NCBI RefSeq assembly: GCF_003334385.1
Contig: NZ_QOWN01000094.1
DNA length: 3,359 nt
Direction: 5' to 3' (one strand)
Origin: Escherichia coli
GTDB taxonomy: Bacteria; Pseudomonadota; Gammaproteobacteria; Enterobacterales; Enterobacteriaceae
Below, piece after piece: positions 1 through 1,980 of the stretch (positions are counted from its first letter, which is position 1; every line of letters starts with the position of its first letter). The notes under the pieces were generated by a model. The model saw only the letters and a list, made by a program, of their open reading frames with translations. It was not told where the DNA came from and searched no databases. Position numbers and translations under genes: made by a program.

Positions 1-1980
1 GGGGTAAGCGGTGAGGCTCAGATTGCGTCCATCAGCCAGAGTGTGGCGCGTTTCTCCTCTGCATCCGGCGTGGAGGTGGACAAGGTCGCTGAAGCCTTCG
101 GGAAGCTGACCACAGACCCGACGTCGGGGCTGACGGCGATGGCACGCCAGTTCCATAACGTGACGGCGGAGCAGATTGCGTATGTTGCTCAGTTGCAGCG
201 TTCCGGCGATGAAGCCGGGGCATTGCAGGCGGCGAACGAGGCCGCAACGAAAGGGTTTGATGACCAGACCCGCCGCCTGAAAGAGAACATGGGCACGCTG
301 GAGACCTGGGCAGACAGGACAGCGCGGGCATTCAAATCCATGTGGGATGCGGTGCTGGATATTGGTCGTCCTGATACCGCGCAGGAGATGCTGATTAAGG
401 CAGAGGCTGCGTTTAAGAAAGCAGACGACATCTGGAATCTGCGCAAGGATGATTATTTTGTTAACGATGAAGCGCGGGCGCGTTACTGGGATGATCGTGA
501 AAAGGCCCGTCTTGCGCTTGAAGCCGCCCGAAAGAAGGCTGAGCAGCAGACTCAACAGGACAAAAATGCGCAGCAGCAGAGCGATACCGAAGCGTCACGG
601 CTGAAATATACCGAAGAGGCGCAGAAGGCTTACGAACGGCTGCAGACGCCGCTGGAGAAATATACCGCCCGTCAGGAAGAACTGAACAAGGCACTGAAAG
701 ACGGGAAAATCCTGCAGGCAGATTACAACACGCTGATGGCGGCGGCGAAAAAGGATTATGAAGCGACGCTGAAAAAGCCGAAACAGTCCGGCGTGAAGGT
801 GTCTGCGGGCGATCGTCAGGAAGACAGTGCTCATGCTGCCCTGCTGACGCTTCAGGCTGAACTCCGGACGCTGGAGAAGCATGCCGGAGCAAATGAGAAA
901 ATCAGCCAGCAGCGCCGGGATTTGTGGAAGGCGGAGAGTCAGTTCGCGGTACTGGAGGAGGCGGCACAACGTCGCCAGCTGTCCGCACAGGAGAAATCCC
1001 TGCTGGCGCATAAAGATGAGACGCTGGAGTACAAACGCCAGCTGGCTGCACTTGGCGATAAGATCACGTATCAGGAGCGCCTGAATGCGCTGGCGCAGCA
1101 GGCGGATAAATTCGCACAGCAGCAACGGGCAAAACGGGCCGCCATTGATGCGAAAAGCCGGGGGCTGACTGACCGGCAGGCAGAACGGGAAGCCACAGAA
1201 CAGCGCCTGAAGGAACAGTATGGCGATAATCCGCTGGCGCTGAATAACGTCATGTCAGAGCAGAAAAAGACCTGGGCGGCTGAAGACCAGCTTCGCGGGA
1301 ACTGGATGGCAGGCCTGAAGTCCGGCTGGAGTGAGTGGGAAGAGAGCGCCACGGACAGTATGTCGCAGGTAAAAAGTGCAGCCACGCAGACCTTTGATGG
1401 TATTGCACAGAATATGGCGGCGATGCTGACCGGCAGTGAGCAGAACTGGCGCAGCTTCACCCGTTCCGTGCTGTCCATGATGACAGAAATTCTGCTTAAG
1501 CAGGCAATGGTGGGGATTGTCGGGAGTATCGGCAGCGCCATTGGCGGGGCTGTTGGTGGCGGCGCATCCGCGTCAGGCGGTACAGCCATTCAGGCCGCTG
1601 CGGCGAAATTCCATTTTGCAACCGGAGGGTTTACGGGAACCGGCGGCAAATATGAGCCAGCGGGGATTGTTCACCGTGGTGAATTTGTCTTCACGAAGGA
1701 GGCAACCAGCCGGATTGGCGTGGGGAATCTCTACCGGCTGATGCGCGGCTATGCCACCGGTGGTTATGTCGGTACACCGGGCAGTCTGGCTGACAGCCGG
1801 TCGCAGGCGTCCGGGACGTTTGAGCAGAATAACCATGTGGTGATTAACAACGACGGCACGAACGGGCAGATAGGTCCGGCTGCTCTGAAGGCGGTGTATG
1901 ACATGGCCCGCAAGGGTGCCCGTGATGAAATTCAGACACAGATGCGTGATGGTGGCCTGTTCTCCGGAGGTGGACGATGA
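1..1980 (+). CDS. H: Tail tape measure (length-determining) protein gpH, 5'-partial; C-terminal 659 aa plus stop
   Basis: Frame 1 is open from nt 1 to the TGA at 1978..1980, so the gene enters from upstream of the window; the GTG at 43 used by the ORF track is an internal codon, not the start. The translation (…VARFSSASGVEVDKVAEAFGKLTTDPTSGL… through …MRDGGLFSGGGR) matches my recollection of lambda gpH. It has a long Ala/Gln/Lys/Glu/Arg-rich helical region followed by a Gly-rich C-terminal region, typical of tape measure proteins. 660 codons in the window is consistent with an 853-aa gpH starting 193 codons upstream. Confidence 0.94.
   Translation, partial: GVSGEAQIASISQSVARFSSASGVEVDKVAEAFGKLTTDPTSGLTAMARQFHNVTAEQIAYVAQLQRSGDEAGALQAANEAATKGFDDQTRRLKENMGTLETWADRTARAFKSMWDAVLDIGRPDTAQEMLIKAEAAFKKADDIWNLRKDDYFVNDEARARYWDDREKARLALEAARKKAEQQTQQDKNAQQQSDTEASRLKYTEEAQKAYERLQTPLEKYTARQEELNKALKDGKILQADYNTLMAAAKKDYEATLKKPKQSGVKVSAGDRQEDSAHAALLTLQAELRTLEKHAGANEKISQQRRDLWKAESQFAVLEEAAQRRQLSAQEKSLLAHKDETLEYKRQLAALGDKITYQERLNALAQQADKFAQQQRAKRAAIDAKSRGLTDRQAEREATEQRLKEQYGDNPLALNNVMSEQKKTWAAEDQLRGNWMAGLKSGWSEWEESATDSMSQVKSAATQTFDGIAQNMAAMLTGSEQNWRSFTRSVLSMMTEILLKQAMVGIVGSIGSAIGGAVGGGASASGGTAIQAAAAKFHFATGGFTGTGGKYEPAGIVHRGEFVFTKEATSRIGVGNLYRLMRGYATGGYVGTPGSLADSRSQASGTFEQNNHVVINNDGTNGQIGPAALKAVYDMARKGARDEIQTQMRDGGLFSGGGR
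1966..1973 (+). promoter_or_regulatory. Shine-Dalgarno sequence for M (GGAGGTGG), inside the 3' end of H
   Basis: GGAGG at 1966..1970 is read directly, 6 nt upstream of the M ATG at 1977. The site lies within H coding sequence, as expected for translationally coupled genes. Confidence 0.6.

What the first reader, a model, noticed from the sequence alone, without database searches (positions are those of the whole stretch)
1618..1782. Degenerate internal peptide repeat ATGG[F/Y]xGTxG in gpH, 45 residues apart
Two decapeptides, ATGGFTGTGG (nt 1618..1647) and ATGGYVGTPG (nt 1753..1782), are in the same frame and share 7 of 10 identical residues plus a conservative F/Y change. The nucleotide sequences differ at many third positions (gcaaccggagggtttacgggaaccggcggc versus gccaccggtggttatgtcggtacaccgggc). 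That argues for selection on the peptide rather than a recent DNA duplication. It may mark a duplicated structural unit or a binding motif in the gpH C-terminal domain.
Basis: seen in the sequence. Interest (0 to 1): 0.4.

Follow-up and report, generated by a model that had tools for sequence, protein, structure and literature searches.

The report
Paired Gly-Gly motifs bracketing gpH module
The two similar ten-residue peptides near the end of the phage lambda tape measure protein are real and conserved: they mark the two ends of a roughly 55-residue module that is shared by thousands of phage tape measure proteins, is repeated in tandem in some, and has no known function.

Summary
Confirmed. 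The window is lambda-type gpH (residues 195-853), followed by gpM, gpL and the start of gpK. ATGGFTGTGG is gpH 734-743 and ATGGYVGTPG is gpH 779-788, in one frame and 45 residues apart.

The similarity is peptide-level, not a DNA repeat, and exceeds chance on substitution and profile scores. Only [FY]-A-x-G-G-[FYL]-[TV]-G is family-conserved; the trailing "TxG" is lambda-specific.

Motif 1 is the head of a strongly conserved unit, G[FY]AxGG[YF]TGxGGK..PAG[IV]VHxGE[FY]V followed by a predicted helix (low confidence). Motif 2 is a cap, [RK]GYAxGG[LYF]VG, found 45-57 residues after the head in about 82 of 85 full-length relatives.

In some tape measure proteins the unit is tandem, 2-4 times, and the next head sits where the cap would be. 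In lambda only the head is repeated.

The module lies in gpHC, the cleaved C-terminal fragment. It sits just after the hydrophobic stretch, near the unmapped gpH cleavage site, in a part no cryo-EM map resolves. AlphaFold2 gave no confident fold.

T5 pb2 is cleaved immediately before an "AEGGMM" motif in the same architectural position, but homology to T5 is not significant.

Function is inferred only. This is a moderately interesting, previously undescribed detail of a well-known protein.

The parts
1..1980 (+). gpH tape measure protein, residues 195-853 plus stop codon. The window starts inside the gene.
   Evidence: ORF listed. DNA is 99.2% identical to lambda, HK630 and DE3. Full-length alignment to PDB 8iyk chain H residues 195-853. 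TIGR01541 scores 444.7 bits against a cutoff of 104.75.
1297..1521 (+). Pfam Tape_meas_lam_C domain (window aa 433-507, gpH 627-701). It ends before the motifs.
1489..1608 (+). Hydrophobic, Gly/Ala-rich stretch (gpH about 691-730). The ~14 kDa C-terminal fragment gpHC must start in or just after this stretch.
   Evidence: Sequence read. Fragment masses computed: a start at 705-730 gives 15.0-13.1 kDa, a start at 735 gives 12.4 kDa. PMC12617516 reports that the cleavage site is unknown and that 691-712 is a weak transmembrane prediction.
1615..1650 (+). Head motif F733-K744, FATGGFTGTGGK.
   Evidence: G736, G737, T739, G740, G742 and K744 are invariant in 58 relatives.
1657..1692 (+). Unit core P747-F758, PAGIVHRGEFVF. 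A748, G749, V751, H752, E755 and V757 are invariant.
   Evidence: for invariant columns. Conserved across phi80, T1-like, Vibrio, Mesorhizobium and P2-like phages.
1696..1743 (+). Predicted helix-turn-helix, gpH 760-775 (KEATSRIGVGNLYRLM).
   Evidence: AlphaFold2 monomer model gives helices at model residues 61-67 and 69-76 with pLDDT about 65-75. The same helices appear in the pseudo-trimer model. G767 and L771 are invariant.
1744..1773 (+). Cap motif R776-G785, RGYATGGYVG.
   Evidence: G777, Y778, A779, G781, G782 and V784 are at least 90% conserved. The cap lies exactly +45 from the head in 59 of 80 relatives.
1870..1944 (+). C-terminal coiled-coil helix, gpH 818-842. This is the only part of gpHC seen by cryo-EM; it sits on the gpI tripod.
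   Evidence: PMC10721106 and PMC12617516. PDB 9e7m_Ha covers 818-849. AlphaFold2 predicts a helix here with pLDDT 70-79.
1945..1965 (+). A third, weaker Gly-Gly-hydrophobic motif, RDGGLFS (gpH 843-849). Relatives carry [RK]PGG[LIM][IL][WY].
   Evidence: The profile match to the head is weak: score 3.7, fourth best window.

Best explanation
The two decapeptides are the N-terminal 'head' and C-terminal 'cap' of one conserved module of about 55 residues (gpH 732-785). The module lies in the C-terminal proteolytic fragment of the tape measure protein.

Both are versions of one short element: aromatic, small residue, x, Gly-Gly, aromatic or hydrophobic, beta-branched residue, Gly. Each full unit reads head, then Gly-rich loop (GxGGK), then PAG(I/V)VHxGE(F/Y)V, then a helix pair. 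In tape measure proteins with tightly tandem units, the next unit's head occupies the place of the cap. In lambda the second unit is reduced to its head.

How it works is inferred, not shown. The Gly-Gly segments are assumed to act as tight turns, with the flanking aromatic residues packing on the central helix pair. This would close a small metastable module sitting in the tail-tip lumen between the hydrophobic segment and the gpI-bound coiled coil. The module would help organise or anchor the C-terminal end of gpH during tail initiation and would be expelled first at infection.

Shown: the motifs, their conservation and spacing, the modular and tandem organisation, and the position in gpHC. 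Inferred: the fold and the role.
For: - Head and unit are present in lambda, phi80, T1-like Sushi, Vibrio H20, Mesorhizobium P1 and a P2-like myophage; the cap is present in all of these except the P2-like one.
- 5065 cluster representatives at 50% identity match at E <= 1e-3, and most matches cover exactly head to cap. 1050 phage genomes match.
- The cap follows the last unit at +45 to +57 in 80 of 86 full-length relatives. Two of the five listed as lacking a cap do carry one with Q or H at the position my pattern excluded.
- Fourteen positions are invariant and eight more are at least 90% conserved across 58 sequences that are only 31-45% identical overall.
- Tight arrays: P0184 has three units with a 47-48 residue period and then a lone YQSGGYV. 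P0127 and P0128 are also arrays.
- Duplicated unit-plus-cap modules occur in P0141, P0205, P0219, P0189, P0202 and P0210.
- Profile tests single out the cap as the match to the head.
- TIGR01541 spans both motifs.
- The module starts just after the inferred start of the ~14 kDa fragment (PMC12617516).
Against: - No structure supports the fold. AlphaFold2 gives pLDDT about 50 (block means 51-56) on both motifs as a monomer and below 50 as a linker-joined pseudo-trimer, with no strands predicted there.
- Cryo-EM of lambda and T1 does not resolve the region, and T1's own tape measure protein did not match the module profile at all.
- Head and cap positions show no convincing covariation.
- In lambda-type proteins nothing beyond 10 residues is repeated, so 'vestigial second unit' is a reading drawn from other proteins.
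- Invariant T, K, H and E residues are more typical of a catalytic or ligand-binding site than of a purely structural element.
- A few relatives (P2-like PHL101, P0128, P0158) have the unit without a cap.
Confidence: 0.6

Rival explanations
1. Processing-site reading. The head motif marks the gpH to gpH* cleavage site. Cleavage would fall at or just before A734, so gpHC would start with ATGGF. The cap would be a second site or a decoy. The conservation would then reflect recognition by, or geometry for, the unknown protease or a self-cleavage step.
For: - T5 pb2 is cleaved after R1127, and pb2C starts AEGGMMYPGVSYQMGEHGTEVVTP. That is immediately before an A-x-G-G-hydrophobic motif, in the same architectural position: after the hydrophobic stretch and before the C-terminal coiled coil.
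- The 'PRAxGG' motif is conserved in T5-like phages of Proteus, Vibrio and Klebsiella.
- The lambda cleavage site is unknown and its catalyst is unknown.
- A fragment starting at 734-735 would be about 12.4-12.5 kDa, against the ~14 kDa gel estimate.
- Thr at head position +6 was present in 98 of 98 units, whereas the cap has Val there.
Against: - The T5 and lambda units are not significantly similar: hhalign E 0.13-0.59, probability below 1%.
- The literature estimates put the gpH* end near residue 710 and the fragment at ~14 kDa, which is upstream of the motif.
- This reading does not explain the cap, tandem arrays or duplicated modules.
- Cleavage has been shown only for lambda and T5.
- A link to the gpK JAB peptidase, which would cut after Gly-Gly, is undermined. 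The module with its cap occurs in a phage with a GTA-like tip and no JAB gene called, and the unit without the cap in a P2-like phage where no lambda gpK-like gene is annotated in the fetched region.
Confidence: 0.2
2. Active-site or ligand-site reading. The module is a small enzymatic, metal-binding or peptidoglycan-binding element, the lambda counterpart of the 'metallopeptidase motif' region of T5 pb2C. The two Gly-Gly motifs would merely frame it. The invariant T739, K744, H752 and E755 would do the work after gpHC is released into the periplasm.
For: - Invariant polar residues sit in a protein family that is otherwise very variable.
- H-R-G-E is an HxxE arrangement. T5 has H-G-T-E at the corresponding place, its record cites InterPro IPR000834, and its region is reported to be muralytic.
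- The enzyme that lets lambda cross the peptidoglycan is still unidentified (PMC11101478).
Against: - PMC12617516 states that lambda virions contain no peptidoglycan hydrolase and that gpH has no known enzymatic activity.
- The T5 His is not conserved in T5-like phages, which have GE[HKDN]G.E.
- Pfam, NCBIfam and the PDB give no enzyme match.
- About 55 residues with no predicted fold is very small for an enzyme.
Confidence: 0.1
3. Chance similarity between two Gly/Thr-rich stretches, or a recent local DNA duplication.
For: The raw 7/10 identity count is reached in 14% of whole-protein shuffles, and another 7/10 pair exists in the Q-rich region. Three of the seven identities are lambda-specific.
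Against: - The BLOSUM score is reached in at most 0.15% of shuffles, and the profile z-score is 4.8.
- Both motifs are conserved at fixed spacing in distant phages.
- Only 18 of 30 bases are identical and no DNA repeat is detected.
Confidence: 0.03

Closest known systems
TIGR01541 (tape_meas_lam_C equivalog domain), the conserved C-terminal region of lambda-family tape measure proteins
   Same: The window protein matches at 444.7 bits. Profile positions 247-332 cover both motifs and the unit between them.
   Different: The family model treats the region as one block. In the library I searched, no head/cap repeat, tandem arrays or module boundaries are described. Pfam's narrower PF09718 stops at gpH 701, before the motifs.
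T5 tape measure protein pb2 and its cleaved C-terminal fragment pb2C
   Same: The order of parts is the same: hydrophobic stretch, then cleavage, then a short conserved A-x-G-G-hydrophobic ... G-E motif region, then a variable linker, then a trimeric C-terminal coiled coil held in the tip. The N-terminal part of the fragment is unresolved by cryo-EM in both phages.
   Different: No significant sequence or profile similarity. T5 has no cap. The distance from GG to GE is shorter in T5. The T5 cleavage site is mapped (after R1127) and a muralytic activity is reported; neither is true for lambda.
Kelch repeat signature (hydrophobic strand, Gly-Gly, Tyr)
   Same: Local resemblance: lambda SRIGVGNLYRLMRGYATGGYVGTPG against designer Kelch PRSGVGVAVLNGRIYAVGGYDGSPD. 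The repeat length of about 45-50 residues is similar.
   Different: Each single-repeat match is non-significant (E 27-94). The low overall E-value comes only from summing six identical designer repeats. Pfam finds no Kelch domain. There are at most 1.2 units in lambda, and no beta-sheet is predicted.
Periodic internal repeats described in other tape measure proteins (for example the roughly 11-residue aromatic periodicity in mycobacteriophage proteins; from my own knowledge, not checked here)
   Same: Both are internal repetition within a tape measure protein.
   Different: Those repeats lie in the long helical ruler region and relate to tail length. This module is a Gly-rich, non-ruler element in the cleaved C-terminal fragment.

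Membership tests
Lambda-family tape measure protein (TIGR01541) | HMM score above the curated cutoff | tested here: met
   444.7 bits against a cutoff of 104.75. The C-terminal 127 residues alone score 114.6 bits on profile positions 247-332.
Lambda-family tape measure protein (TIGR01541) | Gene order H-M-L-K of the lambda tail-tip cluster | tested here: met
   ORFs at 1977-2306, 2306-3004 and from 3010 are annotated M, L and K in 99%-identical phages.
Pfam PF09718 Tape_meas_lam_C | The domain covers the motifs | tested here: not met
   The domain spans window aa 433-507 only. The motifs are at aa 540-549 and 585-594.
Conserved head-unit-cap module (defined here) | Head G[FY]AxGG[YF]TGxGGK, followed by PAG[IV]VHxGE[FY]V | tested here: met
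   gpH 732-758 carries every invariant residue of the 58-sequence alignment.
Conserved head-unit-cap module (defined here) | Cap [RK]GYAxGG[LYF]VG one unit-length (45-57 residues) after the head | tested here: met
   Spacing is +45 in the window. The same spacing occurs in 59 of 80 relatives, and 45-57 in 79 of 80.
Conserved head-unit-cap module (defined here) | A defined three-dimensional fold in which head and cap flank one unit | tested here: inconclusive
   AlphaFold2 monomer and pseudo-trimer models are low-confidence on the module. No solved structure covers it.
T5 pb2C-type muralytic / M14-like zinc motif | Significant sequence or profile similarity to the T5 family | tested here: not met
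   hhalign E 0.13-0.59, probability below 1%.
T5 pb2C-type muralytic / M14-like zinc motif | Zinc-binding H-[STAG]-x-E signature (pattern recalled from PROSITE, not verified here) | tested here: not met
   Lambda has H-R-G-E, and R is outside [STAG]. The T5 His is itself not conserved in T5-like phages.
T5 pb2C-type muralytic / M14-like zinc motif | Peptidoglycan hydrolase activity | not testable with these tools
   The literature reports none in lambda virions (PMC12617516).
Kelch repeat / beta-propeller | Five or more repeats recognised by a Kelch profile and forming four-stranded blades | tested here: not met
   No Kelch hit in Pfam. The designer-Kelch match rests on summed weak repeats. 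No strands are predicted in the module.
Substrate of a JAB/MPN+ peptidase (gpK) cleaving after Gly-Gly | Co-occurrence of the motifs with a JAB peptidase gene | tested here: not met
   P0205 carries two full modules with caps in a phage whose downstream genes carry GTA-like tip domains and no JAB hit. The P2-like PHL101 gpT has the unit, and no lambda gpK-like gene is annotated in the fetched region.

The most novel reading that the evidence does not exclude
gpH is cut immediately before the head motif, at about F733|A734, as T5 pb2 is cut immediately before its AEGGMM motif. The released gpHC would carry, between its two Gly-Gly brackets, a minimal active or ligand-binding site built from the invariant T739, K744, H752 and E755, possibly assembled across a trimer. 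That site would bind or attack the cell wall or a metal when gpHC is expelled into the periplasm. This would fill the unidentified 'how does lambda cross the peptidoglycan' step.
Probability: 0.08. Interest if true: 0.7.

Novelty: new variant of a known kind. Interest (0 to 1): 0.35.

Why it matters
gpHC, the cleaved C-terminal piece of the lambda tape measure protein, has no known function. Its cleavage site has never been mapped, and residues about 690-817 are invisible in every cryo-EM map.

This work shows that the region contains a sharply conserved, portable module with defined borders and invariant T, K, H and E residues. The module is shared by thousands of tape measure proteins across siphophages and at least one myophage, and is iterated in some of them.

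That gives experimenters precise targets: the Gly-Gly pairs 736-737 and 781-782, T739, H752, E755, and the predicted fragment start near 734. It also gives a concrete parallel with T5 pb2C.

It does not change how lambda is understood unless one of the functional readings is confirmed.

Tried and rejected
- AlphaFold2 on gpH 700-853 with a 58-sequence alignment gave mean pLDDT 58, with both motifs as low-confidence coil.
- AlphaFold2 on three copies of gpH 727-853 joined by 25-residue linkers (28-sequence alignment) gave only moderate confidence (pLDDT about 75-79) on the known C-terminal helices and a long strand at about 796-810. The module stayed below pLDDT 50. I ran no fold searches because the models are too poor.
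- PDB sequence and profile searches found only the lambda chain, with the region unresolved. Hits to designer Kelch proteins and cytochrome c553 (E about 0.007-0.01 for 'LYKKMKGYADGSYGG') are judged chance.
- Pfam on the tandem-array protein P0184 found no family over the repeats.
- hhalign of the lambda unit against the region after the cap showed no similarity beyond the 10-residue head.
- hhalign of the lambda-type unit (55 and 96 sequences) against the T5 family was not significant.
- Mutual information between head and cap positions was not informative.
- A search for gpH tryptic peptides in the supplements of PMC10721106, to locate the fragment start, found none held.
- A literature search for the motif strings found no phage paper. 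The Boulanger 2008 T5 paper is not held.
- gpK JAB peptidase cutting after Gly-Gly was considered because JAB enzymes cut after Gly-Gly and Iyer et al. 2006 predicted that gpK processes gpI. I rejected it as the main reading because the module occurs without a JAB gene.
- Similarity of GEFVFTKEATSRIGV to the AbrB/SpoVT 'GRVVIPKEIRRTLGI' hairpin-helix is recalled from memory only. Pfam reported no such domain at E <= 10.
- A Walker-A reading of GTGGKY fails by inspection: there is no S or T after the K, and the spacing is wrong.
- Rfam found nothing in the window.
- A word-indexed homologue search with T5 pb2C returned one fragment only.
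Full report
**What the window is.** The 3359-base window is 99.2% identical to phage lambda, HK630 and DE3. It encodes gpH residues 195-853 (nt 1-1980), gpM (1977-2306), gpL (2306-3004) and the first 116 residues of gpK (from nt 3010). Pfam finds TMP_2 and Tape_meas_lam_C; the latter ends at window residue 507. NCBIfam TIGR01541 covers gpH 472-813, which includes the finding.

**Checking the observation.** In lambda numbering they are gpH 734-743 and 779-788.
- They share 7 of 10 residues, an F/Y change, and one further aromatic residue upstream (F733 and Y778).
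- At the DNA level only 18 of 30 bases match, and 5 of the 7 identical residues use different codons. No DNA repeat is detectable. This is peptide-level similarity.
- The raw identity count is not impressive. It is reached in 14% of whole-protein shuffles and about 1.5-1.8% of local shuffles, and a Q-rich pair also scores 7/10.
- The substitution score of the 11-mer is reached in at most 0.15% of shuffles.
- On a 58-sequence family profile the second site is the outstanding match to the first: 21.8 against 7.6 for the next best, z = 4.8. hhalign aligns precisely these ten columns, E about 5e-4, and nothing more.

**Homologues.**
- A search with gpH 727-853 against 1.84 billion representatives found 5065 proteins at E <= 1e-3. 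Most matches cover query residues about 6-62, which is exactly head to cap.
- tblastn found 1050 phage genomes, including lambda-like, phi80, T1-like Klebsiella and Escherichia phages, Vibrio, Mesorhizobium and Arthrobacter phages, and a P2-like Mannheimia myophage.
- Reading the C-termini shows one architecture. The order is: hydrophobic Gly/Ala-rich stretch; head G[FY][AD]xGG[YF]TGxGGK; [YH][EQD]PAG[IV]VH[RK]GE[FY]V; a helix region (..AT.RIGV.NL..L); cap [RK]GYAxGG[LYF]VG; a variable Ser/Gly/Asn linker; an amphipathic helix; and a terminal ..GG[LIM][IF][WY] tail.
- In an alignment of 58 relatives that are only 31-45% identical to lambda overall, G736, G737, T739, G740, G742, K744, A748, G749, V751, H752, E755, V757, G767 and L771 are invariant. 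G777, Y778, A779, G781, G782 and V784 are at least 90% conserved.
- Among 86 full-length representatives with a unit, 80 have a cap 45-57 residues after the head, and 59 have it at exactly 45. Two of the five listed as lacking a cap do carry one, with Q or H at the position my pattern excluded.
The shared core is therefore [FY]-A-x-G-G-[FYL]-[TV]-G. The head always has Thr at +6 (98 of 98 units); the cap has Val there (77 of 80).

**The unit is modular and can be iterated.** Eleven of the representatives carry two or more units.
- In P0184, three units follow each other with a 47-48 residue period, and each next head sits where a cap would be. The array ends with a lone YQSGGYV.
- P0127 has four tandem units caught by the pattern and a related fifth, ending YFNGGEV. 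P0128 has three units.
- In P0141, P0205, P0219, P0189, P0202 and P0210, complete unit-plus-cap modules occur twice, 100-260 residues apart.
- The natural reading is that the cap is the head of a following unit, kept even where the rest of that unit is absent. In lambda only that head remains.
- No Pfam family covers the arrays.
- Gene neighbourhoods show the module in phages with non-lambda tips, for example GTA-like Phage_BR0599 / phiJL001 Gp84 genes next to P0205.

**Where it sits in the virion.**
- gpH is cut after tail assembly into gpH* and a ~14 kDa C-terminal fragment, gpHC. The cleavage site and the protease are unknown. Cryo-EM resolves only gpH 818-849, a trimeric coiled coil on the gpI tripod. 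Residues about 690-817 are unresolved (PMC12617516; PMC10721106; PMC11101478).
- Fragment masses put a 14 kDa start near residues 715-725, and a start at 734-735 would give 12.4-12.5 kDa. Both motifs therefore lie in gpHC, near its N-terminus.
- In the published T1 structure only the last 36 residues are resolved, and T1's own tape measure protein did not match the module profile at all. No other PDB sequence matched the module profile apart from chance cytochrome c553 hits.

**Structure prediction.** AlphaFold2 on gpH 700-853 gave mean pLDDT 58. It predicted helices at 760-775 and 820-842 and placed both motifs in low-confidence coil. A pseudo-trimer made of three copies joined by linkers gave the C-terminal helices moderate confidence (pLDDT about 75-79) and left the module below 50. 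No fold can be assigned.

**Comparison with T5.**
- I translated pb2. pb2C starts AEGGMMYPGVSYQMGEHGTEVVTP.
- T5-like phages of Proteus, Vibrio and Klebsiella conserve PR-A-x-G-G-[MLI]..PG....GE.G.E..xP, but not the His.
- The order of parts parallels lambda, and the T5 cut falls exactly before an A-x-G-G-hydrophobic element.
- Profile-profile comparison is not significant: E 0.13-0.59, probability below 1%. This is therefore an analogy and a lead, not shown homology.

**Mechanism.**
- Best supported, with confidence about 0.6 for the evolutionary and structural statement and less for the role: the two peptides are paralogous bracket elements of a conserved, duplicable module. I infer that their Gly-Gly turns and aromatic residues close that module in the tip lumen, and that the module helps organise the gpH C-terminus during tail initiation and leaves first at infection.
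- Rival at about 0.2: the head marks the processing site.
- Rival at about 0.1: the invariant T, K, H and E residues form a catalytic or ligand site, with the motifs as a frame.
- Rival at about 0.03: chance or a recent DNA duplication. This is rejected.
- The idea that gpK's JAB domain (HSHP...S..D, nt 3211-3252) cuts after the Gly-Gly pairs was considered and is not supported, because the module occurs without JAB genes.

**Verdict.** The feature is an undescribed detail of a very well-known protein family, and its function is still unknown. It is of moderate interest, mainly as a guide for experiments on gpHC.

Noticed in passing
window 1945-1965 (gpH 843-849, RDGGLFS): A third Gly-Gly-hydrophobic motif follows the C-terminal coiled coil directly. 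Relatives carry [RK]PGG[LIM][IL][WY] at the same place. It lies within the residues modelled by cryo-EM (818-849). Its profile match to the head motif is weak: score 3.7, fourth best window.
   Followed up: partly
window 3010-3359, especially 3211-3222 and 3241-3252: The start of gpK carries an intact JAMM/MPN+ metalloprotease signature (E..., HSHP, S..D). gpK is needed for tail assembly but is absent from virions. Iyer et al. 2006 predicted that it processes the ubiquitin-like N-terminus of gpI. Whether it also cuts gpH is unknown.
   Followed up: partly
window 1804-1848 (gpH 796-810, QASGTFEQNNHVVIN): In the linker-joined pseudo-trimer AlphaFold2 model this segment forms a long beta-strand in each copy, with pLDDT about 45-63. 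Relatives show an alternating V.V pattern here. It may be an inter-chain sheet between the module and the coiled coil.
   Followed up: no
window 1977-1980 and 2304-2308: Overlapping stop and start codons at H/M (ATGA) and M/L (TGATG), the usual arrangement for translational coupling in the lambda tail operon.
   Followed up: no
window 1-1980 compared with PDB 8iyk chain H: Six amino-acid differences from reference lambda gpH: S to T, Y to F, S to G, V to I, and M to L at gpH 790. The last lies two residues after the second motif. Neither motif is changed.
   Followed up: no
P0196 (408 aa, read): In this protein the unit plus cap is followed directly by a sequence that looks like a gpJ-type tail-fibre C-terminal region. 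It is probably a deletion fusion of H to J, or an assembly artefact.
   Followed up: no
L007 (contig carrying P0127): The protein with four to five tandem units lies next to two integrase genes, with no recognisable tail genes in 11 kb. It may not be a conventional tape measure protein context.
   Followed up: no
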